This document shows positions 5,458 to 33,499 of a stretch of DNA of 38,672 bases, piece after piece (position 1 is the stretch's first letter; each line of letters opens with the position of its first letter). The DNA comes from a virus (taxonomy: Duplodnaviria > Caudoviricetes): IMG/VR virus record IMGVR_UViG_3300022218_000005, positions 1 through 38,672 of that record; one strand, given 5' to 3'. Below the pieces are notes generated by a model. The model had not been told where the DNA came from and did not search any database. It saw nothing but the letters and a program-made list of their open reading frames with translations. Both the position numbers and the translations under genes were made by a program.

Positions 5458-5811
5458 TTAGATGTTTTTTTCGTTGTTATTTTCTTTAATATACAATTGC
5501 ATCAAAATATTTATATAAGTATTTTTTGTAACGTTTAAACCTTTGCTTATGAGAAATTTTTTATAGCCGCTAAACAATTCATTTTCGCAAAGAATAAAAG
5601 CGACTGAATTTCTTTGTAAGTCTTTAGCTTTAGAATGTTCTTTTAAAATCTTTTCGTTTTCGCCACTGTATTTATTTAGTAAGTAGATTAAAATAGAACT
5701 TGTATTGCTGGCGGGCGTATTTTTAGCTACTAACGCAAAACATTCTTTTCTTAACTTCGCGTCAATTACTAAATTATGGTGCGTCTTTTTTGTCTTTTTT
5801 AAGTTTGGCAT
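5458..5811 (-). CDS. Possible tandem ribbon-helix-helix DNA-binding regulator
   Basis: Two strand-helix-helix-like halves (HNLVIDAKLRKE...SSILIYLLNKY; VAFILCENELF...NTYINILMQLYI); first gene after cassette C. Confidence 0.45.
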   Translation of the reverse strand: MPNLKKTKKTHHNLVIDAKLRKECFALVAKNTPASNTSSILIYLLNKYSGENEKILKEHSKAKDLQRNSVAFILCENELFSGYKKFLISKGLNVTKNTYINILMQLYIKENNNEKNI

Positions 5812-5848: not shown

Positions 5849-5936
5849 CAAAGTAACGGCTTATTTATTTCTTATGCAAGTTTTACGCAAAAAAAACGCA
5901 AATTAATTTGCGTTTTTTTTATAAAGGTTTGAAATT
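5849..5936 (-). repeat. Terminator-promoter cassette copy C (core only)
   Basis: caaagtaacggcttatttatttcttatgcaagttttacgc...ttgcg-T8 core shared with the other copies. Confidence 0.93.
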
Positions 5937-11566: not shown

Positions 11567-13300
11567 TTATTTTAATTCGTTAAAAAATATTTCGCCACCC
11601 TCTACTAAAATTTCATTGTTAGAAAGTTTGTTTTTTTCAAAATCGCCAGTTACTGACAATATAATATTAAGACCGTTTTCGGCTGCAATTTTTGCAATTA
11701 TAGCACGGGCTTTTTTGTCGATTGGTACGTCATCGATAAAAATATAAGGTAAGCATTTCCCTTTCAATTTAAGCCGTGCTATTTGAAGTAAAACGCCGAT
11801 TATAGGTTTTTGCGTAGAGCTGTAAGAAACTAAAAGTCTTTCTTCTTTATTTGGGTTTTTAAAATATTCAGGATCATAATCACCAGTATAAATAGTTTTC
11901 ATTTCGAGTTTTCCCGTTTCGTTGAAAAACGGCTTAATTCGTAAACCAGAAACACCCGTGTCAATATTTGCGTAGAGTTTATTTAGTTCTTTTCGTTTCT
12001 CATCGACTTTTGCACAAGACTCTACCCATTTTCTATTAATATCAAATCTTTTAACTAATTTGTTATTATGTTCGGCTATTTCTATCTGTTTTTCGACTTC
12101 TGAAATTTGATTGTCTATTTCTGAATAGTCAATTTCAGCGGGTTTTTCGAGGTTTTTATACTCGGCTATTACTCTTAAATAATCTTTTTGTAGTTTCTCA
12201 AAACCTATGTAATTAATTCCATTTTCAAAATTAATAGTATTATTCCCTATTTGCGGCAAAATTGGTTTTTCTGGTTTTTCCGTGTTGTTTCTATTGTAAT
12301 AATCAATAAAACATCTTTTGAAGTAATCAAGCGTTTTATCTTTTTTTGCATTATCGACAAAGTAGATATTATTTAAAACGCCCGCTAATTCAGTATTTAC
12401 AAGTTCGTTATTTTCTTCTTTTTCTTTTAAGAATTGATTGTAAGTTTTCAAGTCAAACTCAAAATCGCTATTAATATCATTTACACGCTCTTTAATTTCG
12501 GTGGCTATATTTTGCCCTTTGGTTGCTATTTCGCTTTTTTTCTTTTCAAAAGCGGCTTTGCTTTCGCCGTTTAACTGTCCTTTTTTTATTAATAAAGCTG
12601 TTTTTTGCTCTGTTAAAAAATTAATATCTTTAAACATTAAAGTTTCTAAACTATCCAAGTCATAACCGTCTCTTTCAAAATCGGACATAAAAGCCCCTAT
12701 ATGAGTACATTCGGAGCGTAAACGGTCTCTTTTATCTACCAAGTCATCCAAAATACCAAGTAAAGAAGTTTTGTAGTCTGGATTTTTTTTGTCAAAAATA
12801 ATACCTTGTTTTCGCAATTCGTTTTTGAAAAGTTCAAACATTAATTTTGTTTGAATAGTATTATTTTCAGATAGAAAACCTTTTATACCAAAGGTTAATT
12901 CAGTGCCGACATATTCGATATATTTTGCGGGTGTGGCTTTCATGCCATTAATAACGGGATTATTAACCTTTTTGCCTTTATTATCTTTTTCATAAAGAGC
13001 AAATTTAGCACTTTGACCGTCTTTTTTGGTTGCACTTATAAAAATATTCTTTTCGCCGTCAAGTAATTGAGTTTCAATACTCCACGCATCGCCGTACTGC
13101 TCGCTGTCTGCTAAGGTTTTTGAGCCTTGTGTGCATATTTTTAAGCCTTTTTGTATTGTGCTTTTTCCCTCGCCGCTACCGCCTTTTATTTCTATTAGCT
13201 CGCCGTTTTTAAACCTACTTAAATCTAATTCAATAGCTTTTAAGTGTCCAAATTGAGACGCTGTAAAGTTTATGATTTTGATTTTTTTGTTGTTTTCCAT
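11567..13300 (-). CDS. SMC/Rad50/SbcC-like ABC ATPase with coiled coil
   Basis: N-terminal Walker A GGSGEGKST, long central coiled coil, degenerate signature YSSTQ, Walker B IFIDD. Confidence 0.8.
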   Translation of the reverse strand: MENNKKIKIINFTASQFGHLKAIELDLSRFKNGELIEIKGGSGEGKSTIQKGLKICTQGSKTLADSEQYGDAWSIETQLLDGEKNIFISATKKDGQSAKFALYEKDNKGKKVNNPVINGMKATPAKYIEYVGTELTFGIKGFLSENNTIQTKLMFELFKNELRKQGIIFDKKNPDYKTSLLGILDDLVDKRDRLRSECTHIGAFMSDFERDGYDLDSLETLMFKDINFLTEQKTALLIKKGQLNGESKAAFEKKKSEIATKGQNIATEIKERVNDINSDFEFDLKTYNQFLKEKEENNELVNTELAGVLNNIYFVDNAKKDKTLDYFKRCFIDYYNRNNTEKPEKPILPQIGNNTINFENGINYIGFEKLQKDYLRVIAEYKNLEKPAEIDYSEIDNQISEVEKQIEIAEHNNKLVKRFDINRKWVESCAKVDEKRKELNKLYANIDTGVSGLRIKPFFNETGKLEMKTIYTGDYDPEYFKNPNKEERLLVSYSSTQKPIIGVLLQIARLKLKGKCLPYIFIDDVPIDKKARAIIAKIAAENGLNIILSVTGDFEKNKLSNNEILVEGGEIFFNELK

Positions 13301-13317
13301 GATTTTAAAGTTGTTTG

Positions 13318-13440
13318 TTAATATTCTTTCGATTTGTTATGACAAAGTAACGGCTTATTTATTTCTTATGCAAGTTTTACGCAAAAAAAAACGCAAATTA
13401 ATTTGCGTTTTTTTTGTAAAGGGTTAGAAAAGAGTTGTTT
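13318..13440 (-). repeat. Terminator-promoter cassette copy D (ends the late operon, starts the early operon)
   Basis: Near-identical to copies A and B, including the 20-nt flank gggttagaaaagagttgttt shared with copy B. Confidence 0.95.
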
Positions 13441-13690
13441 ATGTATTATTTATTTCGATGTTGTTATTTTTTATTTTATCTCTCAATGAAAAATCCCCTA
13501 CCGTGTCATCGTAAATAAGTGAAGTTATACGCTCAGGTGCTGCCGCCCAGTAATTAGCAATTAAATCAAAATCTACGTTCAAATTATTATCGCTTGCGAG
13601 TTTGTATTTATATTGAGTGTTTCCATAAACATCAATGCAAACATCGTATAAAGATCGGGGTTTTTCTATCAAATAAGTTTTTGTAGCCAT
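13439..13690 (-). CDS. LysM/gpX-like baseplate protein
   Basis: SLYDVCIDVYGN...LASDN LysM-like pattern; last gene of the tail module. Confidence 0.65.
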   Translation of the reverse strand: MATKTYLIEKPRSLYDVCIDVYGNTQYKYKLASDNNLNVDFDLIANYWAAAPERITSLIYDDTVGDFSLRDKIKNNNIEINNT

Positions 13691-18746: not shown

Positions 18747-19961
18747 TTAAGATAATTTAGGAACTAATCCAATATTAATAGTAAAAGTTTTTGAAGACCC
18801 TACCGGTACTAAATTTAGTTCTACGTTTACATTCTCTGTCACTAATACGTTCTGACTTGGGTTTATATAAACGCTTTCTAATGGTAAATTCCCATTGCTT
18901 ATAGAAAGCTCTACATTGTCTCCCGCTTTGTCAAGTATCATGTTGTTATTGATAGCATCGTAAACAAGTCTTTCGAGGTATGAAACTGTTGAAACACTAA
19001 GTTTGCCGTCTTTTGGATTAACATAAACAGGTGCGTTAAAACGCGGCAGTAAAGCATCGTAAGCTAATACAATAGCTTTATTTATAGTACGAACGTGTGG
19101 CAAAATCGCGTAGTCGTCGGTTATTTTTCCCGCCATTCGCGAACTGCTTACGTAAACATTGGAATCTCTTTTGATACGTTTCATTAAAACAACGCCCTGA
19201 GTTCCATAAGCTGCTATTTCGGTGTCTGTTTTATCCTCTACTGAAAGCCCGAAAATATCGCCTATCTTTTGCCAACGCCCGCCGCCGTTTACAATAAATT
19301 TAGTCCAAGAAATTTCTTGATGTACTTTTGCAAGTGTTGAAAGTCCCAAAAGGAAACCACCTGCTCCACACATTCCTAAACTATCAAAAACAGCTTTTGC
19401 GAGTCCGTTTTCCGTCAAATCGTTTGCGACATCGACTAAACAACGAAAATTTGAAGCGGTTGAAAAATCGGGAATAGTACCCGCTACGTCGTCAGCTTTT
19501 AAGGTAATAATACAAAAAGCAGGTTGTATTTTAGGGACTAAATTATTAAATTCAGTCTGCACACTTTCAACGTTTGCGGTTGTAAGTTTTAAGCTGCTTG
19601 ATATGTAAGCAAAATTTAAAACGTTATTTGCTTGATTATGGTTATGGAAAGCCTCAAAAACAGTCGCGGGCAGGTGCTTGTCGTCTGTTGTGGTGGCTAA
19701 TTGTAAAAACAAAGTACCATTTGCATTAATACGGAAAAATTCCGATGTATGCAAAAAAACTAATTTATAATAATCATTTACACTGTCTTCTTTTATTCCG
19801 TAGGCTTCCAAGTCGGTATCTTTGTAAATCTTTTTAACCTCGTTTTCCACCCAACCAGCGGGTAAAGTATCTACCTCTACAAATTTACCGCCCCACGTGT
19901 CAGTATTTGCAGATTGCCGCCCCAGACCGCCTTTTTGTATATTTATAATTACATTGCTCAT
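18747..19961 (-). CDS. Tail sheath protein (DUF2586-like)
   Basis: N-terminal GGLGR, DYA....RTINKA, INPSQNVL...VPVG C-terminus. Confidence 0.85.
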   Translation of the reverse strand: MSNVIINIQKGGLGRQSANTDTWGGKFVEVDTLPAGWVENEVKKIYKDTDLEAYGIKEDSVNDYYKLVFLHTSEFFRINANGTLFLQLATTTDDKHLPATVFEAFHNHNQANNVLNFAYISSSLKLTTANVESVQTEFNNLVPKIQPAFCIITLKADDVAGTIPDFSTASNFRCLVDVANDLTENGLAKAVFDSLGMCGAGGFLLGLSTLAKVHQEISWTKFIVNGGGRWQKIGDIFGLSVEDKTDTEIAAYGTQGVVLMKRIKRDSNVYVSSSRMAGKITDDYAILPHVRTINKAIVLAYDALLPRFNAPVYVNPKDGKLSVSTVSYLERLVYDAINNNMILDKAGDNVELSISNGNLPLESVYINPSQNVLVTENVNVELNLVPVGSSKTFTINIGLVPKLS

Positions 19962-19963
19962 AA

Positions 19964-20227
19964 TTATTCTTTTAAGAAGTTACTTAATGTGTCTTTATCA
20001 ATAGACACCATATATTCAAAATCGTGGCGTTCCTGACAAACAATAGCCGATCTTTTTTCGCTAAAAAGTTGTGCAGCCCCGTCTTTTTTCATGCAAAAAA
20101 CTCTTTCTATTCTTTTGCGTTCGCAAAGCCCGAGGGCAGCCTCTACTTCTTTTTTGTCCAATTCAAAATTTACGTTTTTCTTACCTTTTTCTGAAATGGA
20201 TATAATTAATTTATTACTTTTTACCAT
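19964..20227 (-). CDS. Hypothetical protein between capsid and sheath genes
   Basis: 87-aa ORF. Confidence 0.65.
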   Translation of the reverse strand: MVKSNKLIISISEKGKKNVNFELDKKEVEAALGLCERKRIERVFCMKKDGAAQLFSEKRSAIVCQERHDFEYMVSIDKDTLSNFLKE

Positions 20228-20248: not shown

Positions 20249-20264
20249 TGTTTCACGTGAAACA
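20249..20264. promoter_or_regulatory. parS: parS-type palindrome #1
   Basis: Perfect TGTTTCACGTGAAACA, intergenic. Confidence 0.85.
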
Positions 20265-20274
20265 AATATAAGAA

Positions 20275-20290
20275 TGTTTCACGTGAAACA
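20275..20290. promoter_or_regulatory. parS: parS-type palindrome #2
   Basis: Perfect TGTTTCACGTGAAACA, separated from #1 by 10 bp. Confidence 0.85.
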
Positions 20291-20298
20291 AAAATTTT

Positions 20299-21465
20299 TT
20301 ACTCAGGTGCTTCAACTAACATAACAACCCCTTTGCCATCTTGACGTGCTTTTATTGCACCATGGCGAGTCTCCGACGAATATAAATCCCCGTAAAACTG
20401 CGGATTGTTCATATCTGGAAAAACAACTGGTTTACCTTTTGCTATCTTAACAGCGTCAGAGTACCATGCAATCCCCGCACTTAACATATTAGCAGCGGCA
20501 TCAGCACCGTCTTCTACTTTTGTAAGTGTAATATTATCCCCCGAAACACTTTGAGAATAAAGGATATTAGCCCCCCAGTCATCTCTACGGCGTGGATCTA
20601 ATATTTTAAATCCGTAAAGATCGCCGATAAGTCCTTTGTCTCTTTCGCCTCTGTATCCTGTTTGATTGTAGTCAAAAAAGCCGTCAATACTTCTAATATC
20701 ATGTATTTGGGCTTCAGTAGGCAAATAAACAAGGTCCCCGCTAAAAAGTTTATTTGCTCTTTGTAATTCTAATTTACTTTTAAGATTTTTAAAATCCTGT
20801 AAAGTTACTTTTTTTACATTTCCAGTTGTGCCCGTTACTGGGTTTTTACGAACAGCAGTTCCCGAAGTCATTACAAAAAAGTCTGTTCCCTCTGAAATGC
20901 TTACAATCTCGCCAACGCCAACAGCACCTTGAGACCATTCAACCAGAGTAAAATTAGAAATAGCTTCCATTAGTTTAGCTGCTTTGCTTCTCAATAAGTC
21001 AAGTAAAGCATTATAACCAACTTCGGAAGTTAATTCCATAGTAATAACCTGAGCGGGTGTTCTGAAGTACTCAATCACCCATTCCCATTTAGTGTTTTTA
21101 CGAGTATAAACTTTTTGAGCAGTAACCTCTTCTTCATTAACTAAGGCTTTGTCATATAAACGCCCTTTTATCGCCTTCATTCCCTCTACGGAACTTTGCA
21201 TTTTCTTAACCTCACCAGTCGCTGCAAATTGTGCATCGTTTATGGCGTAGCTCATAAAAGAGTCATCTGGATATGCGAACTCGTCAATTTCCGACGAATA
21301 AATTGCAATTCGTTGCTCGGTGCTATTTCTTATATCAGCACTTAACGAATTTCTTGCATAATTCAAATATTTTTGAAAGTCCGAGTCGCTTTTAACGCCG
21401 TGAGTTATCAAGGCATTTTGTAAGTCTTTATTTTTGGTAAAATTTTGTATTTCTGTTATGTGCAT
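20299..21465 (-). CDS. Major capsid protein
   Basis: 388 aa directly after the protease/scaffold gene; GLIGDLYGFKI and C-terminal YGDLYS...RQDGKGVV patterns. Confidence 0.8.
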   Translation of the reverse strand: MHITEIQNFTKNKDLQNALITHGVKSDSDFQKYLNYARNSLSADIRNSTEQRIAIYSSEIDEFAYPDDSFMSYAINDAQFAATGEVKKMQSSVEGMKAIKGRLYDKALVNEEEVTAQKVYTRKNTKWEWVIEYFRTPAQVITMELTSEVGYNALLDLLRSKAAKLMEAISNFTLVEWSQGAVGVGEIVSISEGTDFFVMTSGTAVRKNPVTGTTGNVKKVTLQDFKNLKSKLELQRANKLFSGDLVYLPTEAQIHDIRSIDGFFDYNQTGYRGERDKGLIGDLYGFKILDPRRRDDWGANILYSQSVSGDNITLTKVEDGADAAANMLSAGIAWYSDAVKIAKGKPVVFPDMNNPQFYGDLYSSETRHGAIKARQDGKGVVMLVEAPE

Positions 21466-21471
21466 ATTTTT

Positions 21472-22596
21472 TTATTTAAAAGAAGCGTTAAACAATTCAT
21501 TAAATTTAATAGGGTTTTTTGCTCTCAATTCTTTTCGAGCAGCCGCCGTCATGTTCGCAAACTCCGCTGCTTTTTCTTTTTGTGTTTGCGAGTCCCCGTT
21601 CGGCTCGATACCGTCATCAATACCATTGTTATTGATAATAATATCCTGAATAGGGTTAAGTGTTTTAAAAGCATCGAAATTGCCCTTTGCCATGTTTACT
21701 AACGCTTCACGATGTTCTTTTTTTGAAGCATCTTTTTCAATTAAAGCATCTACGTAGTCTTCAAACTTTTCGTTTTCAAGTTTTTCTGCTCTGTTTTTAA
21801 AAGCTGTATTTTCCGCTTTCAAATCTTTTATTTCGTTTTGCGACTCATTGTATTTGTTTTCAAAAGTCGTTTTTTCTGTTTTTAAATTTTGAATAGCAAG
21901 GCGAACATCGGCATCCCCCGCGTTTTCATTCAAATTTAAAATACCTATTAATTCTTTCATATACTTTAAGTTTTTGATTTTCGGAGTAAAGTTTTTAGTA
22001 ATATTATACACTTCTAACCTACTAAGGTTTTGAGCTATCTGTGGAGTATTGTCTATTTTTATAATACTGTCTATTAAACCCGCTTTTTTAGCCTCTAATG
22101 CTGTAAAAGTAGTTTCGTTTTCCATAAAAGAACGGACTTTGCTTTTTGACAGATTAGTATTAGCTGTAAATATATTTTCTATCGCGTCCGCAACACTTAA
22201 CAATTTATTTTTAAGCTCACCGTCAGGCAAATCCGCAGCGGTTAAACCGTCTTTTGTAGCTGGCGGGTGCAATAACATTGTGTTGAAAGGCATTACTTTA
22301 CGATAGCCTTTCGTGCCGCTTGCAACTATCCATCCTGCAACACTGTCGGTTATACCAAGCCCCAAAGTTTCGACAATTTCGCCGTTTTGAGTTTTTTGAT
22401 TTATAGCCGAAATAATTTCATAACCAGCCAAAACATTACCACCAAAAGAATTTACTCTAATTCTAATATGTTTAGAATCGGCATTTAAAATTTGGCTTGC
22501 AATATTTGCACCATCATAAAAATCAATATCCCCGCTTAAAATTATTTCAGGAATACCGTCTGTTTTGCTATTTATAAAATCCACTGTTTTCATCAC
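21472..22596 (-). CDS. ClpP-like (S14) prohead protease with C-terminal scaffold region
   Basis: VNSFGGNV, DSVAG (Ser), MLLHPP (His), ETTFTALEAKKAGLID; coiled-coil C-terminus. Confidence 0.9.
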   Translation of the reverse strand: MMKTVDFINSKTDGIPEIILSGDIDFYDGANIASQILNADSKHIRIRVNSFGGNVLAGYEIISAINQKTQNGEIVETLGLGITDSVAGWIVASGTKGYRKVMPFNTMLLHPPATKDGLTAADLPDGELKNKLLSVADAIENIFTANTNLSKSKVRSFMENETTFTALEAKKAGLIDSIIKIDNTPQIAQNLSRLEVYNITKNFTPKIKNLKYMKELIGILNLNENAGDADVRLAIQNLKTEKTTFENKYNESQNEIKDLKAENTAFKNRAEKLENEKFEDYVDALIEKDASKKEHREALVNMAKGNFDAFKTLNPIQDIIINNNGIDDGIEPNGDSQTQKEKAAEFANMTAAARKELRAKNPIKFNELFNASFK

Positions 22597-22605
22597 GCCC
22601 CTAAA

Positions 22606-23133
22606 TTAAGTATTTATTTCGACTTTTGCAATTTTCCCCAAAACTATTGGTTTTAAAACGTTCCCCTCGTTTGCATCTACTATATTTGTATTCTCTACAA
22701 ATTCCTTAACAATAAAAGAATAATTCATTAAATATTCATAATTTGCGGCGTGGTTTAAGTCTTCACGCTCGCCCATCTTAAGGACACGCCCATTTATACA
22801 GTCGTGTTTTACGCCTGAAAATTTCTTGTGTATTCTATCTGCAAAGTCGTATGCTGTATTTTGAGCGTTTCCATTATAATTGTTAAAAACAATTCTTAAA
22901 TCAATAGTTACAGGTATCTGTTCGGCTTGCTGTATTTTTTGTTGGTTAAGATATTCGCGACCATCCCCTATGTTTGAATAAGCAAAATAAACGGCTATTT
23001 CTGGGGCTGTTTCTTCATTTTCAAATCTTTGCATTTGATTATTCCAAGCCTCAAAACGTTTTATTTCATCACCCAAAGCCTCAACCGTTTTGATTTCGAA
23101 AAAATTCTTTAATTCAGTTCGCCAGTTACTCAT
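22606..23133 (-). CDS. Probable tail terminator / neck protein
   Basis: AWNNQ...AVYF pattern; next to the virion morphogenesis gene. Confidence 0.6.
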   Translation of the reverse strand: MSNWRTELKNFFEIKTVEALGDEIKRFEAWNNQMQRFENEETAPEIAVYFAYSNIGDGREYLNQQKIQQAEQIPVTIDLRIVFNNYNGNAQNTAYDFADRIHKKFSGVKHDCINGRVLKMGEREDLNHAANYEYLMNYSFIVKEFVENTNIVDANEGNVLKPIVLGKIAKVEINT

Positions 23134-23588
23134 TTTTTAAAGATTAAATTATTTATTTCTTCTTTTACTGCTTTTTCAACCTTTTTATTTAGTTCCGTAG
23201 AATATCCTAAGATTTCACGTTGTGGCATTTTATCCGTACCTTCATTGTGGTAGCTTGCGTAATCGGTTGCGTCAGTGCCTATAATAATTTCATTAAAAGT
23301 AGCTTTTTGAATATCAATATCATTTCGCATTTGCCCCGTATCCACTAACAAGGCTCTCCCTATTTGCCTTTTTGCTTTTAAGCGGGTTTTTCGTCCGCTT
23401 GTGAAGTCTTTTATTTTTAATTTGCGTTTTTCCCATCCGCTTATTGATTTATCAGTTTGCCCCCCGCCTTTTGCAAATCCTTTTAAATAATGGTTTTTTG
23501 CAAGCTCGGCTATAATTGTCGGGATTTCAATTTTAAATTTATCTACATTCTTTTGTAAATTTGGATATTTACCTTTTTGTTTTAACAT
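23130..23588 (-). CDS. Phage virion morphogenesis protein (Mu gpG / tail completion-like)
   Basis: LLVDTGQMR, YASYHNEG and MPQREILG motifs; start placed at MLKQKG (the longer track ORF overlaps the upstream gene). Confidence 0.8.
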   Translation of the reverse strand: MLKQKGKYPNLQKNVDKFKIEIPTIIAELAKNHYLKGFAKGGGQTDKSISGWEKRKLKIKDFTSGRKTRLKAKRQIGRALLVDTGQMRNDIDIQKATFNEIIIGTDATDYASYHNEGTDKMPQREILGYSTELNKKVEKAVKEEINNLIFKK

Positions 23589-23607
23589 AGCTTTTTTTGT
23601 TTGAAAA

Positions 23608-24219
23608 TTAAACATTTGCACGCACACCCTCGCCGCCTTGTCGGTCTGCCCCAAAGTCTCCAAAGTCTATGGGCGTATCACTCAGTAAAGAAATGGTTAA
23701 AATATAATCATTCACTTGTCTTTTTACGTCGAAACTTTGAATAACGAATTTTTTTAATCCAAACCTATTATTTAGAAACTTGTTTTCTATCTCAATAGCC
23801 CCTTGTACTTTTTCAAGTTTTACAATTTCGTTTAAAGTTTCAGTATCTGTAACGTCGGGCTGTACGTTTACAAGTCCTGCAAAACGGTTCGCGGTTGTGG
23901 CTACTAATGCCTTTTGTGCAGCTATTCCAAGTAAACCAGTAGCCGAAAAAAGCGGTGCTGCTATAATTATGCTTAAATTTACATTATAGTCTCCTTTTCC
24001 TGTATATTCTTTGATAGTGCCATTTTTGCCATTTACTCGACTGAAAACAATATCGGACTGTCGCGAAATATCTATTTGAGCAGCATTTAAAACAATCTCA
24101 TTATAAGCCCCGTTTGCAGGTGCGGGAAAAATTATATTATCATAAACAACACTGCCAAGCTCCGAAAAACCCACGGGTTTACTCTCTATTCCTATGTCAT
24201 TTACTAATATTTCAGCCAT
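23608..24219 (-). CDS. DUF6046-like tail tube initiator / baseplate protein
   Basis: GKNGTIKEY...DYNV, FLN..FG...VI and LLSD motifs. Confidence 0.65.
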   Translation of the reverse strand: MAEILVNDIGIESKPVGFSELGSVVYDNIIFPAPANGAYNEIVLNAAQIDISRQSDIVFSRVNGKNGTIKEYTGKGDYNVNLSIIIAAPLFSATGLLGIAAQKALVATTANRFAGLVNVQPDVTDTETLNEIVKLEKVQGAIEIENKFLNNRFGLKKFVIQSFDVKRQVNDYILTISLLSDTPIDFGDFGADRQGGEGVRANV

Positions 24220-24220
24220 A

Positions 24221-25003
24221 CTATTTGCTTATTTTTGGAAAACCAAAATTATTTTTTAATTCATTAGAAAACTCACGAGGTACTTTGAAATAATTATTTT
24301 TACCTTTTCCGCTTTCTTTAAAAAGATACTCTTTTTTGCCTACATTAAACGCAAATTCAGGGTTTTTTTTAAATTCTTTTTCTATTTCTTTTGTTTTGTC
24401 TTTTGTTTCGTTTTCGGTTGTTGTGTTCGCTTTACGGTGTCTTATGACAATGCAGCGACACCGCCAGCCGTTTGCGGGGAAAATAGTATTCCATATAGGG
24501 TCATCCACTGGTTTTTTTAAGCCATCTAATTTTTTATGCGATGGTCTTACTCGCTGGTCGCCCACGCTTACATATTCTAAAATAGGGAAAATATCTTTTT
24601 CGCTTTCGTATTTAATCCATTTTCGCGCGTTTTGAGCCTGTTTAATAGCTAAGTCATTCTCAGCTTTTAACCATTCTATATTATATTTTTCATTTATTTT
24701 TAGAGCTGTTTTTTTAAAGTCTGCAAATGGTCTTTTTATGCCATTTGGTAAAAAAACATTATCGCTTAACTCTTTTATATTTTGAAAAGTTTTCGCACCA
24801 GAAAAACGGCTTATATTTGTTCTGTAATTAAAAGCTTTTTGATTTAAAAATTTATCAGTTCCCAAAACCTCGCCAAATCCTTTTTTAAAAGAATTATCTA
24901 ACTTTTCAAAAGTCCAAAAATATAATAACTCGGGGAGTTTAAAAAGGCTTATTTCTCCCGAAAAAACTCCCTCTATTAACAAAGTAATTAAATCCTTGTC
25001 CAT
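24221..25003 (-). CDS. Mu gpF / SPP1 gp7-like minor head protein
   Basis: YVSVGDQRVRPSH..LDG...P.DDPIW...PANGWRCRC signature. Confidence 0.9.
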   Translation of the reverse strand: MDKDLITLLIEGVFSGEISLFKLPELLYFWTFEKLDNSFKKGFGEVLGTDKFLNQKAFNYRTNISRFSGAKTFQNIKELSDNVFLPNGIKRPFADFKKTALKINEKYNIEWLKAENDLAIKQAQNARKWIKYESEKDIFPILEYVSVGDQRVRPSHKKLDGLKKPVDDPIWNTIFPANGWRCRCIVIRHRKANTTTENETKDKTKEIEKEFKKNPEFAFNVGKKEYLFKESGKGKNNYFKVPREFSNELKNNFGFPKISK

Positions 25004-26223
25004 TACTCTATTGGTATTTTTGCATAAAAATCATAATCAAAACCGGCTGTTAATGCAGTATTTAATAAAACTATCCCTATGCCGTTTATGTTTGAGGTAC
25101 CTGCAACACCCTGTAATATTTCATTGTTTCCATACATAAAAACAGGAATTTCCATATTAGTGAGCAAAGGTAAATAATTTGTGAAATCAATATCAAAAAG
25201 AGCTTTATTGCCTATTGTTTGACTTATGAATTGAAAAATCCCTTTTATCTCTATAAAGTCCTTTTCATATCTATAAAATACACTTGTATTTGACACGTTT
25301 ACATTGTCAGTTTCGTAAGCACCTGAAGGGACAGCTGTCCACTCAAAAGGCAAAGATGTTTTTAATATAGGGAAAATCAGCGTATCTGTCCAGTCTGACA
25401 CTTCGATATTAAATCCATTAGTTGTAAAGTTTTCCCCTAGTAGTAAGAAAGTCCCACCATACGAAGCTCCTGTCCCTTTTTGAATATATAAGCTTGCTTT
25501 TGCAGGAGACTCTTGGTTATCTACAAGCACAAATTTAGGCATATTTTCAGTAGGTATTCCTATTGTTTTAACATTCAATTCTAACCCACTCCCGCTTTTG
25601 CCAAAATTAACCAAGAAAGAACACGGTTGAGCTTCGTGTGTAAAACCATTAAAAAAAACAGTAAAATTACAAAACTGGGCTGTTAAAAACTCCCCTATTT
25701 TAATAAAAGCGTTATCCGTCGAGTAGGTTGGCAAAACACGCCAGTTTTGCGACTTTTCAAATAAATTAGGCTTATATAAATCACCCAAACCTTCCAAATC
25801 GGTATTTATATTGCCCAAAAGTTCACCGTTTACATTTCTTAAAAATCTGTTATTTACTCGAGGAGTATCAGCATCTATTCCAAAAATACCACCCGCAACG
25901 GCTTTTTGTTCTCTTATTGTATTTCTTACAATGCCATCATTAAATTCGCGAGCGTCCGTATCTGTAACACTTAAAGTTACATTATAAGGTAAAGAAACGC
26001 CAGTTACAGCCTCAAAAGTTGCAAGTTTGTTTTCCAAAAAAACAATGCCTTCCGAAATATTAGCGTTTAAAGTTGTGCCTGTTACTATACAACCCGAAAC
26101 AATCGTATCTCCAAAATTTAATTCTTTGAAAATATTTTCTTGCATTTCCAAATTATCAATATAAGGCAGCATGTCTTCATTTTCTAAAGGTCTCCCGCCG
26201 TCTGGATTTAATATTTTTCTCAT
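25003..26223 (-). CDS. Tail fibre / receptor-binding protein
   Basis: Follows baseplate J and I genes; N-terminal GGRPL..ED, IVSGC and GIVF attachment-domain pattern; beta-rich C-terminus. Confidence 0.65.
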   Translation of the reverse strand: MRKILNPDGGRPLENEDMLPYIDNLEMQENIFKELNFGDTIVSGCIVTGTTLNANISEGIVFLENKLATFEAVTGVSLPYNVTLSVTDTDAREFNDGIVRNTIREQKAVAGGIFGIDADTPRVNNRFLRNVNGELLGNINTDLEGLGDLYKPNLFEKSQNWRVLPTYSTDNAFIKIGEFLTAQFCNFTVFFNGFTHEAQPCSFLVNFGKSGSGLELNVKTIGIPTENMPKFVLVDNQESPAKASLYIQKGTGASYGGTFLLLGENFTTNGFNIEVSDWTDTLIFPILKTSLPFEWTAVPSGAYETDNVNVSNTSVFYRYEKDFIEIKGIFQFISQTIGNKALFDIDFTNYLPLLTNMEIPVFMYGNNEILQGVAGTSNINGIGIVLLNTALTAGFDYDFYAKIPIE

Positions 26224-26225
26224 AT

Positions 26226-26729
26226 CTAAAAATATATAATATCGTAACCAGTGCCGTAGATTTGCACTAAGTTAATATGGTTTTTAATTTTATTTTCTAT
26301 GTTTTGGTATTCGATAGGTACAAAAACAGTAAAGCGAATAACAGAACTAAGTGGCTTTTGTTCGGTGCTGTTAAATGTATAAACTTTATCAAGACCACCC
26401 TCCCCCTTGTTTCCTAAAAACGTCTTTTGCGGGGCTGTTTCGCCACTATTGAAAACATACGGATTGATCACAACATTAGAGCTGTTATCAATTATAATAC
26501 GCTTCAAAACACTATCAAAAACATTATTAAGGCTATTTTCCAAAGAAAGCCGCTGTATTGAGTAGCCAAGTTGTATTTTTGTTTCGTTTTCAGTTGTTTC
26601 GAGTTTTTCGTTTACCGTATCAAAACAGCCGTGTAAAATAGTATCTATCAAACTGAAATTTTCTTCATTTTGATAAAAAAAAGGTATAAAATCCTTAATT
26701 ATATTATCTAAGTTATATTTCATAATCAA
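26226..26729 (-). CDS. Baseplate wedge subunit (gpI-like)
   Basis: SLENSLNNVFD...FTVFVP...GTGYDI pattern; between J and fibre genes. Confidence 0.65.
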   Translation of the reverse strand: MIMKYNLDNIIKDFIPFFYQNEENFSLIDTILHGCFDTVNEKLETTENETKIQLGYSIQRLSLENSLNNVFDSVLKRIIIDNSSNVVINPYVFNSGETAPQKTFLGNKGEGGLDKVYTFNSTEQKPLSSVIRFTVFVPIEYQNIENKIKNHINLVQIYGTGYDIIYF

Positions 26730-27583
26730 CCAGTTATATAATTAATATTGTCGCTTAAAATAAAGCCGCTTTCTAAGTTTACGTAGCCTGACAAAGCCTT
26801 AAAACTCTTACTTGGTAAGCTTAAAACATCTACAAAACCACTCTCTCCGCTTGCTTTTTTCTCTAAAAAGGTAAATACGGAATTTAAAACGCCGTCAGTA
26901 TTTAAAACCGATTGCATTAACTTATTTGCGTAAAAAGTGCCGCCAAAACTTACATTTTGAAAACCTGCAATATAATCATTTACAGCGTTTTCGACTGGCT
27001 TTGTCGTACCGTCGCTTAATAGCGTACCGTCCGAAATATTAATAATTTGACTATCTACTGTAACCGTGAAACCCACTCTAATTTCATCCCCATCTAAAGT
27101 AGTTATTAATATATCAAGCCCTGCGGGTTGCATATCGTTAATATAGTCAAGAAAAGCACTTAGGTTTGTGGGGGTTAGCGACACGGGCAAACCGCCAGAA
27201 AGCTCCGCCACTTTCAACTCTATACGCCCGTTTGCATCGGTGAAAACAGCGGCTCTTTTAATTATTTGCTTATCGACATCTATTACTTCATAGCCTAAAT
27301 TTCCATTAACGAAAGTAACCAAAGGGTCTCCAAGTTGGAAGCCTAAAGAGATACTTCGCCACCAGAAAGAAGTATGTACTTGCTTGCTTTCTAATATCGT
27401 TTTAACCTCACTTAAAAAGTCATCAAACGTAAGTTCAAACTCGCCTGTTATTTCTGCATAACAAGCAAACAAAGCTAAAAAAAACGACTGTTTACTTTGC
27501 GAGGTGCAAATGTTTGACAATATAGGGTCGGCATCTTTTCGAGCCAGTATTTCTTCTAATATCTCTGCTTTTGTCCGTGCCAT
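26726..27583 (-). CDS. Baseplate wedge subunit (gpJ-like)
   Basis: MART..EI, HT..W......FQ.GD, IIKRAAV, LKVA and YI....PAG motifs. Confidence 0.78.
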   Translation of the reverse strand: MARTKAEILEEILARKDADPILSNICTSQSKQSFFLALFACYAEITGEFELTFDDFLSEVKTILESKQVHTSFWWRSISLGFQLGDPLVTFVNGNLGYEVIDVDKQIIKRAAVFTDANGRIELKVAELSGGLPVSLTPTNLSAFLDYINDMQPAGLDILITTLDGDEIRVGFTVTVDSQIINISDGTLLSDGTTKPVENAVNDYIAGFQNVSFGGTFYANKLMQSVLNTDGVLNSVFTFLEKKASGESGFVDVLSLPSKSFKALSGYVNLESGFILSDNINYITG

Positions 27584-27596
27584 GAGTTAAATATAT

Positions 27597-27641
27597 AAAA
27601 AAAGGCTGCAAACTCCAAAAAAAAAGAAGTTTGCAGCCTTT
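27597..27641 (-). terminator. Strong intrinsic terminator
   Basis: AAAGGCTGCAAACT/AGTTTGCAGCCTTT perfect 14-bp stem ending in T7 on the minus strand. Confidence 0.85.
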
Positions 27642-27715
27642 GAAAACAACAAATAAAAAAAACAAAAAAGTGTATTAACCTAACAAATAAAAACCAACAA
27701 AAAACCATTTTGTCT
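27597..27715 (-). ncRNA. Candidate ~119-nt U-rich small RNA
   Basis: Bounded by a perfect Bacteroidota promoter (27720..27750) and a 14-bp-stem terminator (27597..27641) in a gap between structural genes; start site inferred. Confidence 0.6.
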
Positions 27716-27719
27716 ATTG

Positions 27720-27750
27720 CAAACATACAACTTTTTTTTGTTTCTGCAAA
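27720..27750 (-). promoter_or_regulatory. Consensus Bacteroidota sigmaA promoter
   Basis: Minus strand TTTG-N19-TATGTTTG, an exact match to the -33/-7 consensus. Confidence 0.82.
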
Positions 27751-27758
27751 CAAAACGT

Positions 27759-28118
27759 CTATTTTATTTTTTTTAGCAGTTCTTTTATATCTGAACTTAT
27801 TTCTTTGATACTTCCTTTTATTTCACTTGTTTCTTTTTGTAAATTTTCAATTCGGATTGTCAATTCGCTTTTAACTGAGCTTATAGCCTTATCTGTTTCA
27901 GTGCGAAATTTCGCAATCTCTTTTTTTAAATAATCTTCTGTTACAGCGTTTTTAATTAAATACTCTACATCGCTGTTCATTTTTATTCGTTTTGCATTTA
28001 TGTTTTTTAATAATTGTTTTACGATAAAAACCAAAGCCACCATAAAAACAACACAAAAAACCAAAACTACAAACCCTGTCAGAACAGGGCTTGACGCTAC
28101 TAATTTTGAAAAGTCCAT
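27759..28118 (-). CDS. Membrane-anchored coiled-coil protein (holin- or spanin-like candidate)
   Basis: One long N-terminal TM helix followed by coiled coil. Confidence 0.55.
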   Translation of the reverse strand: MDFSKLVASSPVLTGFVVLVFCVVFMVALVFIVKQLLKNINAKRIKMNSDVEYLIKNAVTEDYLKKEIAKFRTETDKAISSVKSELTIRIENLQKETSEIKGSIKEISSDIKELLKKIK

Positions 28119-28121
28119 TTA

Positions 28122-28283
28122 TTACTTATTTTTATTAATATTGTTTCCTATCTTTTTTTTGATAAGCTTTTGTTTATCTTTTAAGCCTTTATATTTCCTG
28201 TCGATCTTTCGCTTACCTATGATATAATAAATAATCGGTACAATAAAAACCATAGCAATGGAGCAAATAATAAAAATTTTCAT
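28122..28283 (-). CDS. Small (53 aa) TM protein with basic tail, not in the ORF track
   Basis: Manual translation MKIFIICSIAMVFIVPIIYYIIGKRKIDRKYKGLKDKQKLIKKKIGNNINKNK. Confidence 0.6.
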   Translation of the reverse strand: MKIFIICSIAMVFIVPIIYYIIGKRKIDRKYKGLKDKQKLIKKKIGNNINKNK

Positions 28284-28337
28284 TTTTTCATTTTTTTAAG
28301 ATTTAAAAACGCGGCTTAACCGCCCGCCGCAAAGGAT

Positions 28338-28353
28338 TGTTTCACGTGAAACA
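28338..28353. promoter_or_regulatory. parS: parS-type palindrome #3
   Basis: Perfect TGTTTCACGTGAAACA (palindrome extends to 20 bp, 28336..28355), intergenic. Confidence 0.85.
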
Positions 28354-28358
28354 ATTAT

Positions 28359-30629
28359 CTAAACTTCTGAAAAGTTAATATTTAAAGTGTTAAAAGTAAC
28401 CTGAGTATTTGCAATATTACTTTTAACATAAAGCTCGAAATAATCATTTTCCGCAATATTAAAAATATCTACTGCATTCGGAGTTATATCGCTATTTGGA
28501 GAGTTAACGCCGTGTGGAGTCTCAATAAAAAACGAACCGTTCTTATATAAAGCTAATGTTATAGTGCTTAACTTATCAACACTAAGAACCGCCGCAGCGT
28601 TAAAATGATATTTTCCCGCTTTTAAACAAGTTAACTTATTCGTTGCTAAGGTTGTAAAAAGCTCATTTATAGCGTCATCGGTAAAAATTCCAGTTATTTT
28701 ATAGTATTGCCCAGCGTTTGCTAAGTCCATAACTTCGATGTCCGACAAATTCATTTTACCAACTCCTTTTGGGTAAATAATAGGCTTTTCAAAGTTAAAA
28801 TAAGTGTCTTCTTCTGTAAAACCCGAATCTTTAAAAGTAGTTCCGTCTTTTACAGGAAACCTCTTATCTGAAATATTAGCACCGAAAACAGTTTGAACTT
28901 GTTCAGTTGTAATATTTTCAATGCCTAAAGTAGCCCAGTTGCTATTGTCGTAAGAAGTTGGCGTTTCTGCTGTCCATTTTTGAATTTTTGAATTGCTTTC
29001 TGAAATAATATCTAACCAAAAAGCTCTATTACCAAAAAATTCTAAGGTAAATACATTCTCACCACGTCCAGACAAAGTTGCTACTGCACTACCTATTCCA
29101 GTTACTACATTATAAATTTTATCAAATTCTAAATTACCATTAATATCAACATAATATATATATATAGATACAGGGTCAGGAAAATACTCAAGTGTGTATA
29201 GTTTGTTTTCATTGAAATACATAAAACTAGAAGAAGATACAGAATAAGAATCTTCAAAAGTCAAAGTGCCATCAATATTGATATTATATTTATATACTGT
29301 AATATCTCTCCCTATGTATAATTTACTGTTGTAAATAGCAAGTGAACTAAGGCTTGTATATCCAGTAGCTAAGTTATCGTCGTAAGTTAATGAACCATCG
29401 CCATTTATTATATACCAATAAACAGTAGTATTATTTTGAACATATAGCCTATTATCTTTTATAGCTATTTGTCCTAATCCTGCATAACCAGTAGCTAAAC
29501 TACCATCGGCGGTTAAAGAACCATCACCTGCTATCAAATACCAATATATAGTATTATCATTTTGAACATACAACCTATTGTCTTTTATAGCCATACCACA
29601 CAAACTAGCACTGAAACCTGAAGGAATAGATATTTCATTACTCAAAGTTCCATCCGCAGCAATATCATAGCTTTTGATATTAGGACCATCTAATACGTAA
29701 AGTTTTGTTTCTGTCGCTATGCTATATATTGGGTTGCTTAAAGTAGTGTTTACACCCCCGCCTAACTCTAAATAAGGCTCTCCTGTTTTTTCTTCAATTC
29801 CTATTTCTAAGCCTTTGTACAACTCATCTAATTTAGTCGGAAAATAAGCATCTCTTGCAGCTTCACTATCAAAAACATGTTCTGGCAAAATACTGTTAAA
29901 AGCAAATTCTAATCCGTCCTGAGTCTCATTTACTCGCAAAAATTTACGTTTTTGCCCTATGTAAGAAGTCGGGGTGTCTGTTAAATTAAGAAAAGAAACC
30001 AAGGCTACATTCCCTATAACAGACCACCCCGAACCATTCCAAACAATTATACTGCCGTTTGCAAAAGTCTGTCCTGTATTTGTTTTTGTCGGGTCATTAT
30101 CTATTACATCCGCTAATACAAAATAAACATCATTTGCAGCAACAGCCGTCAAGGCTGGAAAGTCGGCAGCTGTTAAAATTTCGCCTTTTGTTTCCAAGAA
30201 ACCAGAAAGCAGATTAAACCAGTCTAAAGGGCTTGTTTCTGGGTTTGCATTTGTATTGTCTCTTAAAGCAACGTATAGCATACCGTTGCGGTTTGTTATG
30301 TTGTTTGTTTTATAATTTTCATAATCTACCCAAGAGCCCAAAACAGACCCGCCCGTCCCTATACTATTTATTTTTTTTTTTGAAACAAAACCCGACAAAG
30401 TCGCCATTCTATCCTGTAAATCAACTGGAGTTATATCGACACCAGTGTCGTTTTCAAGCGTTACTGTTGCCATATCAATATCAAAGCTGGGCTCGTTTTG
30501 ATACATCGAATAAAGCCGCACTGCCGTAGGCGAAATAGCCGCAACCTCGAAAGATAAACCTTTAAATTTTCCATTTATAAAAAACCCGTTAAGATTGTCT
30601 TTAATTGTTAAATTTTTTAATATACTCAT
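28359..30629 (-). CDS. Large mosaic fibre/adhesin-like virion protein
   Basis: CBM5/12-like W...Y.......Y.A...N...P....W motif, FLNLTDTP.SY.GQ fibre linker, 42-aa propeller-like repeats, C1q/TNF-like C-terminus. Confidence 0.72.
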   Translation of the reverse strand: MSILKNLTIKDNLNGFFINGKFKGLSFEVAAISPTAVRLYSMYQNEPSFDIDMATVTLENDTGVDITPVDLQDRMATLSGFVSKKKINSIGTGGSVLGSWVDYENYKTNNITNRNGMLYVALRDNTNANPETSPLDWFNLLSGFLETKGEILTAADFPALTAVAANDVYFVLADVIDNDPTKTNTGQTFANGSIIVWNGSGWSVIGNVALVSFLNLTDTPTSYIGQKRKFLRVNETQDGLEFAFNSILPEHVFDSEAARDAYFPTKLDELYKGLEIGIEEKTGEPYLELGGGVNTTLSNPIYSIATETKLYVLDGPNIKSYDIAADGTLSNEISIPSGFSASLCGMAIKDNRLYVQNDNTIYWYLIAGDGSLTADGSLATGYAGLGQIAIKDNRLYVQNNTTVYWYIINGDGSLTYDDNLATGYTSLSSLAIYNSKLYIGRDITVYKYNINIDGTLTFEDSYSVSSSSFMYFNENKLYTLEYFPDPVSIYIYYVDINGNLEFDKIYNVVTGIGSAVATLSGRGENVFTLEFFGNRAFWLDIISESNSKIQKWTAETPTSYDNSNWATLGIENITTEQVQTVFGANISDKRFPVKDGTTFKDSGFTEEDTYFNFEKPIIYPKGVGKMNLSDIEVMDLANAGQYYKITGIFTDDAINELFTTLATNKLTCLKAGKYHFNAAAVLSVDKLSTITLALYKNGSFFIETPHGVNSPNSDITPNAVDIFNIAENDYFELYVKSNIANTQVTFNTLNINFSEV

Positions 30630-32648: not shown

Positions 32649-32716
32649 AGCACAAATTTAATTAAATAATCTTAAAATAAGAAATTTAATCGCGAAAAGC
32701 CAAAAAAGGCGGCAAA

Positions 32717-33421
32717 GTGTAACTTGTGTAACATTGAGTCGCGTTTTATTTACTCCTATAAAAAACAGCGTATTTATATGACTTTTGTCATGTTTTGGTA
32801 TATATACTTTATTTACTCTTTATACTTAAATAGGTATATATACCTTGTTTTATTTTATATATACTCAATATATAAACCTATGTTACACTATTTAGATAAA
32901 AAAAGAGAAAGAAAAAGATATAAATAACTGATAGTAAGGCAATTAACCACCATTTGCGTAAGTTTTGCGTATGAAAAGTGTATGTTGCACGCTGTTTTGG
33001 TTAAATACAGCCGTACCCTTCTGATTTACAAACCGTTACTATACGTTTGCGTAAGAAAGATGTATGTTACACGCTGTTTTCGGTAAAATCTTACCTAACT
33101 GATTAACATATAGGCATCTAAGATTGTTTTTAGCGAAAAACCTATGTTACACCCTATGTTGCACTTTTAAGAACCTATGTTACACGTTTTACTCGAAAAG
33201 CAACACGCGTAAACTTTGCGTATAAAAAGTGGATGTTGCACTTTGCGTGTAACATAGAAAAATCACGCTCGTAACTGATTGAATTACAGGCACTATAAAG
33301 GTTGCGTATAAAAAGTGTATGTTGCACGGGTATAAATACCTATGCTGTAAATCAGGTCGTTACGGTGTTTTCGAGCGTCTGGAAACATCAAAATAGACAC
33401 CTTTTTTCACCTTTGTGTAAC
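32717..33421. repeat. Iteron-like repeat region with AT-rich tract: putative replication origin
   Basis: Four 26-bp units of TTGCGTA(t/a)(a/g)AAA..TG(t/g)ATGTT(g/a)CAC at 32965, 33047, 33216, 33302; CCTATGTT(a/g)CAC at 32877, 33141, 33153, 33174; inverted GTGTAAC at 32717, 32726, 33247, 33415; AT-rich 32760-32930; largest non-coding gap. Confidence 0.7.
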
Positions 33422-33452
33422 TTACATTTTCTTTACGTTGCTACATTAAAGC

Positions 33453-33486
33453 AAAAAAAACGCCTCTCAAAAGAGGCGTTTTTTTT
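33453..33486. terminator. Bidirectional intrinsic terminator bordering the putative origin
   Basis: A8-CGCCTCT-CAAA-AGAGGCG-T8. Confidence 0.85.
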
Positions 33487-33499
33487 ATTTGCAGATCAA

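What the first reader, a model, noticed from the sequence alone, without database searches (positions are those of the whole stretch)
20249..28353. Three perfect chromosomal parS sites in a phage with no parA/parB and no integrase: possible use of the host ParB-SMC segregation machinery
Seen: TGTTTCACGTGAAACA occurs exactly three times that I could find (20249, 20275, 28338), always intergenic. Two copies are paired after the capsid gene and one follows the large fibre gene, about 4 kb from the putative origin. No ORF has ParA, ParB or integrase motifs. Established: this 16-mer is the canonical bacterial chromosomal parS bound by ParB/Spo0J, which loads SMC. Bacillus phage phi29 uses parS sites to be segregated into spores. 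Inference: in a non-sporulating Bacteroidota host, these sites could let a circular, non-integrating phage be partitioned as a plasmid-like prophage or carrier state using only host proteins. Alternatively they could titrate host ParB after replication, or let ParB spreading silence late genes. Three exact 16-bp matches in 38 kb are not plausibly chance.
Basis: partly seen in the sequence, partly recalled or inferred. Interest (0 to 1): 0.88.

Follow-up and report, generated by a model that had tools for sequence, protein, structure and literature searches.

The report
Host centromere sites in Bacteroidota phage
A lytic-looking phage, probably of Bacteroidota, carries three exact copies of the bacterial chromosome's centromere word (parS) and no detectable partition genes, so it likely borrows the host's ParB protein, as Bacillus phage phi29 is known to do; its relatives that could be checked lack the sites.

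Summary
Observation confirmed: three exact intergenic parS 16-mers (20249, 20275, 28338), where about 1e-5 exact copies are expected by chance. The genome is a complete 38.5-kb Winoviridae-like myovirus with its own primase-helicase. No ParA, ParB, integrase or transposase was found. Several signs point to a Bacteroidota host. That phylum uses this parS, and its ParB keeps the parS-reading residues. Best reading: host ParB loads on the phage DNA and likely ties it to host ParA. SMC: ScpA/ScpB were found in 0 of 82 genomes of the two likeliest host orders, though other orders have ScpA. Conservation: none of 90 related viral loci nor three cultured Winoviridae has parS, so it looks like a lineage-specific gain. 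A plasmid-like prophage is unlikely. One new lead: the pair overlaps a Bacteroidota-type promoter pattern ahead of the tail genes (chance about 0.2%, post hoc). The trick is known from phi29. parS is hugely over-represented in viral contigs (about 5,700 stretches against 2 for a control word). This scan has reported it before on other DNA (41 findings in at least 39 genomes, some Bacteroidota phages).

The parts
20275..20290 (.). Exact parS 16-mer, upstream copy of the pair on the coding (minus) strand, just after the capsid stop codon
20249..20264 (.). Exact parS 16-mer, downstream copy of the pair, 21 bp before the start of the 87-aa ORF that precedes the sheath gene
28338..28353 (.). Exact parS 16-mer (palindrome extends to 20 bp, 28336-28355) after the fibre-like gene
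20263..20292 (-). Bacteroidota sigma-A-like promoter pattern overlapping the pair: TTTG (20292-20289), 18-nt spacer, TATATTTG (20270-20263); predicted only
   Evidence: consensus from PMC7366714 passages; chance 0.2% for both boxes, 3.2% for the -7 box alone
28311..28330 (-). Separate GC-rich terminator-like hairpin with a T run just downstream of site 3
20299..21465 (-). Major capsid protein (388 aa), by position after the Clp-type protease and weak similarity to the lotta8-1 structural protein
19964..20227 (-). 87-aa ORF of unknown function, conserved at this position in relatives L144, L146 and L149; first gene after the pair
18747..19961 (-). Tail sheath (DUF2586 / phrog_907), start of the tail block
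28359..30629 (-). 756-aa fibre-like protein
   Evidence: phrog_20878, weak, E 3e-4
32649..33499 (.). Likely replication origin: 851-bp non-coding gap with ten GTG(T/C)AACAT repeats in both orientations around an AT-rich core
   Evidence: analogous clusters in parS-less FPSV-S1, lotta8-1, L157 and L158
5936..8647 (-). DnaG-type primase fused to a helicase-like domain; likely the phage's own replication protein
5458..5811 (-). 117-aa predicted ribbon-helix-helix-like regulator; the one candidate phage repressor-type DNA binder identified, not ParB-like
   Evidence: feature score 0.90 to a cluster with RHH_3 in 22% of members; 0.89 to a ParG 28% cluster; lead only
11567..13300 (-). Rad50/SbcC-like AAA_23 coiled-coil ATPase; also present in parS-less relatives, so not tied to the sites
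   Evidence: (L145, 50% identity)

Best explanation
The three exact parS palindromes are likely docking sites for the host's chromosomal ParB, gained by this one lineage of a lytic-looking phage that probably infects Bacteroidota. Predicted mechanism: after injection, host ParB dimers load at the sites and spread as CTP clamps. The ParB-coated phage DNA would then engage host ParA on the nucleoid, so a genome whose lytic cycle is stalled in a slow-growing cell is held in place and passed to a daughter cell (a transient carrier state, not a true plasmid prophage). SMC is probably not involved if the host is in Bacteroidales or Flavobacteriales. Shown: the sites, their excess over chance, no detectable phage par genes, the same word and cognate ParB residues in Bacteroidota, and absence from the relatives checked. 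Inferred: the host phylum, ParB binding (about 0.8 likely) and the segregation benefit (about 0.45 overall).
For: Exact 16/16 match three times, all intergenic. The word is the published consensus (PMC10197239 passages; PMC7022226 Table 1). [quoted passage not shown] TGTTYCACGTGRAACA occurs in 105 of 151 Bacteroidota genomes against 0 for the reversed control; the exact word occurs in 8 of 41 and 10 of 41 genomes of two orders. Host signs: sheath hits only Flavobacterium phages (11 of 11); portal hits are mostly Bacteroidota phages; 34 of 36 terminase-bearing genome contigs carry Bacteroidota titles; 1 of 49 starts has a Shine-Dalgarno-like core and A is enriched at -3, -5/-6 and -11 to -14, the Bacteroidota signature. 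No phage ParB. Site 3 sits beside its own terminator-like hairpin, so it is not needed as a hairpin. parS is over-represented across viruses: about 5,700 stretches against 2. Precedent: phi29 has five parS used through Spo0J (PMC2731898 passages).
Against: No conservation: 0 of 10 capsid-related loci at up to 3 mismatches, 0 of 80 terminase-related viral loci (0.85 Mb) at up to 2, 0 of 90 with a relaxed pattern, and none within 2 mismatches in FPSV-S1, lotta8-1 or Peternella_1. The function is therefore dispensable for the family, and selection on these copies cannot be shown by comparison. The host is unidentified. No binding or persistence data exist. The sites lie among late genes, not at the origin. 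The pair can also fold as a 16-bp RNA stem (z -5.3). The origin repeats are one base from a parS half, so a phage-encoded binder is not excluded.
Confidence: 0.45

Rival explanations
1. Host ParB acts as a repressor: the pair is an operator over an internal sigma-A promoter for the tail genes, and repression would lift once replication multiplies the sites and titrates ParB.
For: TTTG-N18-TATATTTG is built from the first bases of both parS copies on the coding strand. It is one of only 2 intergenic -7 boxes on that strand; the other precedes the first head gene. The chance of both boxes given random flanks is 0.2%. ParB represses promoters next to parS3/parS4 in Pseudomonas (PMC5521831 abstract).
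Against: Post hoc, and the spacer window was widened to 17-21 after seeing 18 (19-21 is the range I recall). Two intergenic -7 boxes are what chance predicts (36 in the genome, 6.5% intergenic). The overlap is not general: 2 of 312 viral parS flanks against 0.65 expected. Relatives express the same genes with a few-base gap and no parS. Site 3 has no such pattern.
Confidence: 0.13
2. Sponge: the replicated genomes soak up host ParB, disturbing host origin segregation and replication or division control to the phage's benefit.
For: Bacteroidota genomes mostly hold 1-3 perfect sites, so tens of phage copies with three each would outnumber them. Position on the phage would not matter, which fits the scattered placement.
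Against: No direct evidence. It may be only a side effect of any ParB binding. parB is non-essential in several species (PMC7022226 Table 1 passages).
Confidence: 0.15
3. A phage protein (the origin-repeat binder or the RHH-like protein at 5458-5811) is the true reader of the palindromes.
For: Ten origin repeats GTG(T/C)AACA differ from the parS half GTGAAACA by one base. A predicted RHH-like protein exists.
Against: The two motifs never mix: 10 of 10 origin repeats have T or C where 6 of 6 parS halves have A. parS-less relatives have analogous origin repeats. A phage operator equal to parS at all 16 positions would be a large coincidence. No ParB-like helix-turn-helix was found.
Confidence: 0.1
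4. The sites act only as RNA hairpins (terminator or stabiliser after the capsid and fibre genes).
For: The pair folds into a 16-bp stem with a 10-nt loop followed by U4 (-23.2 kcal/mol). Two of 11 relatives (L140, L153) have an unrelated intergenic hairpin at this junction.
Against: Any two copies of a palindrome pair with each other. The stem is AU-rich and was not called as a terminator. Site 3 folds no better than shuffles (z -0.97) and has a separate hairpin beside it. A hairpin does not need the parS sequence. Dual use of the pair remains possible.
Confidence: 0.08
5. One reading: a plasmid-like prophage partitioned by host ParB and SMC.
For: Terminal repeat consistent with a circular or permuted genome; no integrase; ScpA in 131 of 151 phylum-wide genomes and in a Chitinophagaceae genome; about 15 of 36 terminase-bearing genome contigs have Chitinophagales-type titles.
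Against: ScpA 0 of 41 and 0 of 41, ScpB over cut-off 0 of 41 and 0 of 41, in the orders of G134 and G010; no condensin found in two gut Bacteroidetes (PMC10197239). All called genes lie on one strand behind four copies of one promoter-terminator repeat. No RepA, CI or toxin-antitoxin family was found. Pippivirus, the nearest cultured gene set, is described as lytic only (PMC7077304 passages). No capsid relative was found in bacterial genomes.
Confidence: 0.09

Closest known systems
parS sites of virulent Bacillus phages phi29 and Nf, read by host Spo0J/ParB (PMC2731898, passages; the original work is its ref. 21, not read)
   Same: Virulent phage with several host-type parS sites; host ParB is the proposed reader; proposed use is segregation of the phage genome.
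   Different: phi29 is a linear terminal-protein podophage whose sites serve spore entrapment together with Spo0A boxes. This is an unrelated myovirus of a probably non-sporulating host, with three sites, two of them 26 bp apart, and no experimental evidence.
Chromosomal ParABS centromere (PMC7022226, PMC7383237, PMC10197239; passages)
   Same: Identical 16-bp word; a few copies, two clustered; within about 5 and 12 kb of a likely origin.
   Different: Sits on a phage with no parA or parB in cis. The SMC-ScpAB partner was not found in the two likeliest host orders.
Winoviridae, Pippivirus-like group (lotta8-1, pippi8-1, FPSV-S1; PMC7077304 and PMC8776804, passages)
   Same: Mu-like head and tail module, Clp protease, DUF2586 sheath, ResIII-type helicase, AAA ATPase, origin-like repeat cluster; no annotated integrase or transposase in lotta8-1 and FPSV-S1.
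   Different: Only about 20-45% protein identity; DnaG-type primase instead of VirE-type; the three cultured genomes checked have no parS.
ParB repression of promoters next to parS3/parS4 in Pseudomonas aeruginosa (PMC5521831, abstract)
   Same: Intergenic parS overlapping or next to a promoter-like pattern.
   Different: There it is a host chromosomal effect shown by experiment. Here the promoter is only a pattern on a phage.

Membership tests
Chromosomal-type parS site | 16-bp palindrome matching the consensus | tested here: met
   16/16 three times; consensus
Chromosomal-type parS site | Host lineage has the same parS and a cognate ParB (R173, G201) | tested here: met
   Met at phylum level only: 105 of 151 genomes; 9 of 9 ParBs, read by eye. 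The actual host is unknown.
Chromosomal-type parS site | Bound by ParB with CTP-dependent spreading | not testable with these tools
   Needs EMSA or ChIP
Chromosomal-type parS site | Loads SMC-ScpAB | tested here: inconclusive
   ScpA/B in 0 of 82 genomes of two likely orders, but ScpA in 131 of 151 phylum-wide; host order unresolved
phi29-type use of host ParB | Lytic phage with host-type parS and no own ParA/ParB | tested here: met
   the lytic lifestyle is inferred from gene content
phi29-type use of host ParB | Sporulating host; entrapment in the spore | tested here: not met
   Host signs point to Bacteroidota; that this phylum does not form endospores is general knowledge
phi29-type use of host ParB | Host ParB shown to segregate the phage genome | not testable with these tools
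   No cultured host or phage
Phage-plasmid with ParABS (P1/N15 type) | Own ParA and ParB next to the centromere | tested here: not met
Phage-plasmid with ParABS (P1/N15 type) | Plasmid replication initiator and immunity repressor | tested here: not met
   No RepA or CI-type family among 60 ORFs; only an RHH-like lead; 34 of the 60 have no Pfam match at all
Intrinsic terminator | GC-rich stem followed by a U tract | tested here: not met
   The parS sites were not called; a separate hairpin was called at 28323-28311. The pair can form an AU-rich 16-bp stem.
Winoviridae | Core genes: Clp protease, neck, capsid, sheath, baseplate hub, head morphogenesis/portal (PMC8776804 Table 2) | tested here: met
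   tblastn homologues to lotta8-1 for all of these
Winoviridae | Placement by whole-proteome clustering | not tested
   No VirClust or VICTOR run; filed only as Winoviridae-like

The most novel reading that the evidence does not exclude
The phage uses host ParB as a genome copy-number sensor. Two parS sites form the -33 and -7 boxes of a tail-gene promoter, so ParB blocks tail synthesis while the phage genome is single-copy and carried with the nucleoid, and replication titrates ParB away to switch the tail genes on.
Probability: 0.1. Interest if true: 0.8.

Novelty: new member of a known kind. Interest (0 to 1): 0.36.

Why it matters
Use of host ParB by a phage is documented for phi29, where it serves spore entrapment. 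The roughly thousand-fold excess of parS in viral contigs, and cases like this one in a probably non-sporulating host, suggest a wider and untested strategy for persistence or host take-over. This genome adds two points. The sites can be gained by one lineage of an otherwise parS-free family. In hosts that appear to lack SMC-ScpAB the benefit would have to come from ParA, gene control or titration. As a single uncultured case with no known host and no conservation, it is a modest addition. Cultured phages with parS-like matches on non-sporulating hosts (Microbacterium, Arthrobacter, Gordonia, Ruegeria, matches not checked one by one) are better test systems.

Tried and rejected
Conservation in relatives: searched through capsid, terminase (34, 37, 38) and baseplate hub (89). 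The nearest loci reach only 42-47% (capsid), 58-65% (terminase) and 61% (hub) and are mostly fragments. L148 (the window itself) and L150-L152 (duplicates of L147, L146, L145) were left out of the counts. Whole records were checked for 9 handles, 0 with a match at up to 2 mismatches, 1 of them complete; the L149 record was not held. No sequencing run was listed, which is no evidence either way. A preferred spacing of the pair was rejected: 78 distinct spacers from 6 to 30 nt among 120 viral loci, 9 of them 10 nt, and those loci are unrelated to this phage (one helicase hit). The phage's SMC-like ATPase as a partner was rejected: it is a common phage AAA_23 protein also found in parS-less relatives. 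No Rfam family or tRNA. The sigma-70 scan was uninformative (49 against 53 expected). GC skew follows the coding strand and does not mark an origin. Host order was not resolved by methylase, SSB or primase searches. The fold of the 117-aa protein did not finish, and a PDB sequence search gave nothing below E 0.45. Five literature searches on phages with parS listed no paper on parS in Bacteroidota phages and no survey of parS in phages. The library lacks most subscription papers, and no supplements were opened. A search on parS titration and one on phage P4 origin repeats gave nothing usable.
Full report
Observation. The 16-mer TGTTTCACGTGAAACA is present exactly at 20249, 20275 and 28338. At up to 3 mismatches there is one more match (6191); shuffles give 0.27 on average and 0 of 100 reach four. 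About 1e-5 exact copies are expected under Markov models. All three sites are intergenic in a genome that is 93.5% coding. The pair shares 20 bases in register and looks like a tandem duplication, so two independent gains are likely.

The genome. The window is a whole virus record, rated 100% complete, with a terminal repeat (1-134 against 38537-38670). All called genes lie on the minus strand. It encodes a Mu-like head and contractile tail (portal, Mu F, gp36 adaptor, Clp protease, sheath, tube, tape measure, baseplate hub) and terminases. Its replication and recombination set comprises a DnaG primase fused to a helicase-like domain, an SF2 helicase, SSB, Erf/Rad52, YqaJ, an endonuclease and a Dam-type methylase, plus a Rad50/SbcC-like ATPase. 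Four copies of one terminator-plus-promoter-like repeat head the early gene blocks. The nearest cultured phages are Winoviridae: lotta8-1, FPSV-S1 and Peternella_1. Pippivirus is described as lytic only (PMC7077304, passages). No ParA, ParB, tyrosine integrase, transposase, RepA or CI family was found. A ParB HMM from nine Bacteroidota genomes found nothing on the coding strand below E 4. Many small ORFs have no family, so a very divergent binder cannot be excluded; the 117-aa ORF at 5458-5811 looks RHH-like (a lead).

Host. Sheath hits are 11 of 11 Flavobacterium phages. Portal hits are mostly Bacteroides, Flavobacterium and Porphyromonas phages. Of 36 genome contigs with a related terminase, 34 have Bacteroidota titles. 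Only 1 of 49 ATG starts has a Shine-Dalgarno-like core (background 7.9%), and A is enriched at -3, -5/-6 and -11 to -14, matching the Bacteroidetes signature (PMC7366714, passages). The order is unresolved.

Does that host use this parS? TGTTYCACGTGRAACA occurs in 105 of 151 genomes of the phylum of G010 (Limibacterium by record title), against 0 for the reversed control. The exact word occurs in 8 of 41 genomes of the order of G134 (Flavobacteriales by my reading of its ParB; unnamed) and in 10 of 41 of the order of G010 (Bacteroidales, from general knowledge). Nine of nine aligned ParBs keep the residues matching R173 and G201, read by eye. PMC7383237 (section 8 and passages) reports these as absolutely conserved and shows all 17 tested ParBs binding parS. 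Host ParB binding is therefore likely but not shown.

SMC. ScpA was found in 0 of 41 and 0 of 41 genomes of those two orders, and ScpB over cut-off in 0 of 41 and 0 of 41. PMC10197239 (passages) found no known condensin in two gut Bacteroidetes. Against this, 131 of 151 genomes of the even phylum sample have ScpA, as does a Chitinophagaceae genome, while Pedobacter and a Sphingobacteriaceae genome lack it. About 15 of the 36 terminase-bearing contigs have Chitinophagales-type titles. The SMC leg is thus doubtful rather than excluded.

Relatives. None of 10 capsid-related loci has a match within 3 mismatches. None of 80 terminase-related viral loci (849,650 bases) has one within 2; of 36 bacterial loci, 2 have a 2-mismatch word and none is closer. 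A relaxed pattern finds 0 of 90 loci, and three cultured Winoviridae have nothing within 2 mismatches. Gene order is conserved in L145, L146, L149 and L157, yet at the capsid junction five of 11 loci have an ATG within 4-6 bases of the start of the stop codon and two have an unrelated intergenic hairpin. At the fibre junction, L157 and L149 have almost no gap (read by eye). The sites are therefore a lineage-specific insertion as far as these distant, mostly partial relatives show.

Generality. An exact parS lies in about 5,700 stored IMG/VR stretches (estimated from 2 of 64 parts), against 2 for the reversed word. Some of these may be host flanks or elements with their own ParB; I did not sort them. 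In the sample, 29 of 126 sites lie in an open frame. Close pairs occur in about 190 stretches with no preferred spacer. In GenBank phages, 421 records give a loose BLAST match to the pair, including phages of non-sporulating hosts (not verified one by one). This scan's earlier notes hold 41 such findings in at least 39 genomes, some in Bacteroidota phages. These are unchecked AI notes and not support.

Two local leads. First, on the coding strand the pair spells TTTG-N18-TATATTTG (20292-20263), the Bacteroidota sigma-A pattern, directly ahead of the 87-aa gene and the tail block. With random flanks both boxes arise in 0.2% of trials and the -7 box in 3.2%. The test is post hoc, intergenic -7 boxes are not enriched overall, and the overlap is not general among viral parS (2 of 312). 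ParB repression beside parS has precedent (PMC5521831, abstract). Second, the 851-bp gap at 32649-33499 holds ten GTG(T/C)AACAT repeats (shuffle mean 0.14, maximum 3 in 1000), one base from a parS half. parS-less FPSV-S1, lotta8-1, L157 and L158 have analogous clusters of other words. They never share the variable base with the parS halves, which argues for two different binders.

RNA reading. The pair folds into a 16-bp stem (z -5.3), as any doubled palindrome would. Site 3 folds no better than shuffles and has its own terminator-like hairpin beside it. A hairpin role alone does not explain the exact sequence.

Mechanism. Most likely, host ParB loads at the three sites (about 0.8). I commit to ParA-coupled positioning and passage of a stalled phage genome through host division as the main benefit (0.45), ahead of titration (0.15), operator control (0.13), a phage-encoded binder (0.10), an SMC-partitioned plasmid prophage (0.09) and hairpin only (0.08).

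Comparison. It works like phi29, whose five parS sites are used through Spo0J for spore entrapment (PMC2731898, passages), but in an unrelated phage and a probably non-sporulating host. It is not a P1/N15-type phage-plasmid. Five searches listed no paper on parS in Bacteroidota phages, in a library that lacks most subscription journals; no supplements were read. A preprint on persistent virulent phages (10.1101/2024.12.31.630880, passages) discusses carrier states and phi29 but its searched passages name no use of host ParB. Verdict: real, a new member of a known kind, of moderate interest.

Noticed in passing
window 32649-33499: Ten GTG(T/C)AACAT repeats in both orientations around an AT-rich core. 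Winoviridae relatives have analogous clusters of other words (FPSV-S1 GTGTAACC x8, lotta8-1, L157, L158, L234), which suggests a family-wide origin design.
   Followed up: partly
window 1-134/38537-38670, 3223-3356, 5820-5953, 13314-13447: Four copies of a cassette with a 32-bp palindromic terminator-like hairpin followed by a near-consensus Bacteroidota promoter (TTG-N20-TTACTTTG), heading the early gene blocks. A related hairpin lies at 33452-33487.
   Followed up: partly
window 11567-13300 (-): 577-aa Rad50/SbcC-like ATPase missed by Pfam, PHROG and NCBIfam but placed by the ESM Atlas among viral AAA_23 clusters.
   Followed up: partly
window 5458-5811 (-): Predicted RHH-like protein placed first behind an early promoter repeat; a candidate autoregulator.
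   Followed up: partly
whole window: No endolysin was recognised by PHROG or Pfam; the small membrane ORFs at 27759-28283 are holin or spanin candidates only.
   Followed up: no
orders of G134 and G010; G011, G012: ScpA and ScpB were not found in two whole Bacteroidota orders that keep parS and ParB, while most other lineages of the phylum sample have ScpA; the loss looks lineage-wide.
   Followed up: partly
G019, G057, G065, G081, G101 and others: Many Bacteroidota genomes carry exactly two parS about 1.9 kb apart, as if flanking one conserved gene.
   Followed up: no
window 17400-17651 and 29355-29594: 126-bp tandem repeats inside the tape-measure gene and the fibre-like gene.
   Followed up: no
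L024, L066, L281, L331, L339: Unrelated viral contigs with arrays of three to five exact parS within about 1 kb or less.
   Followed up: no
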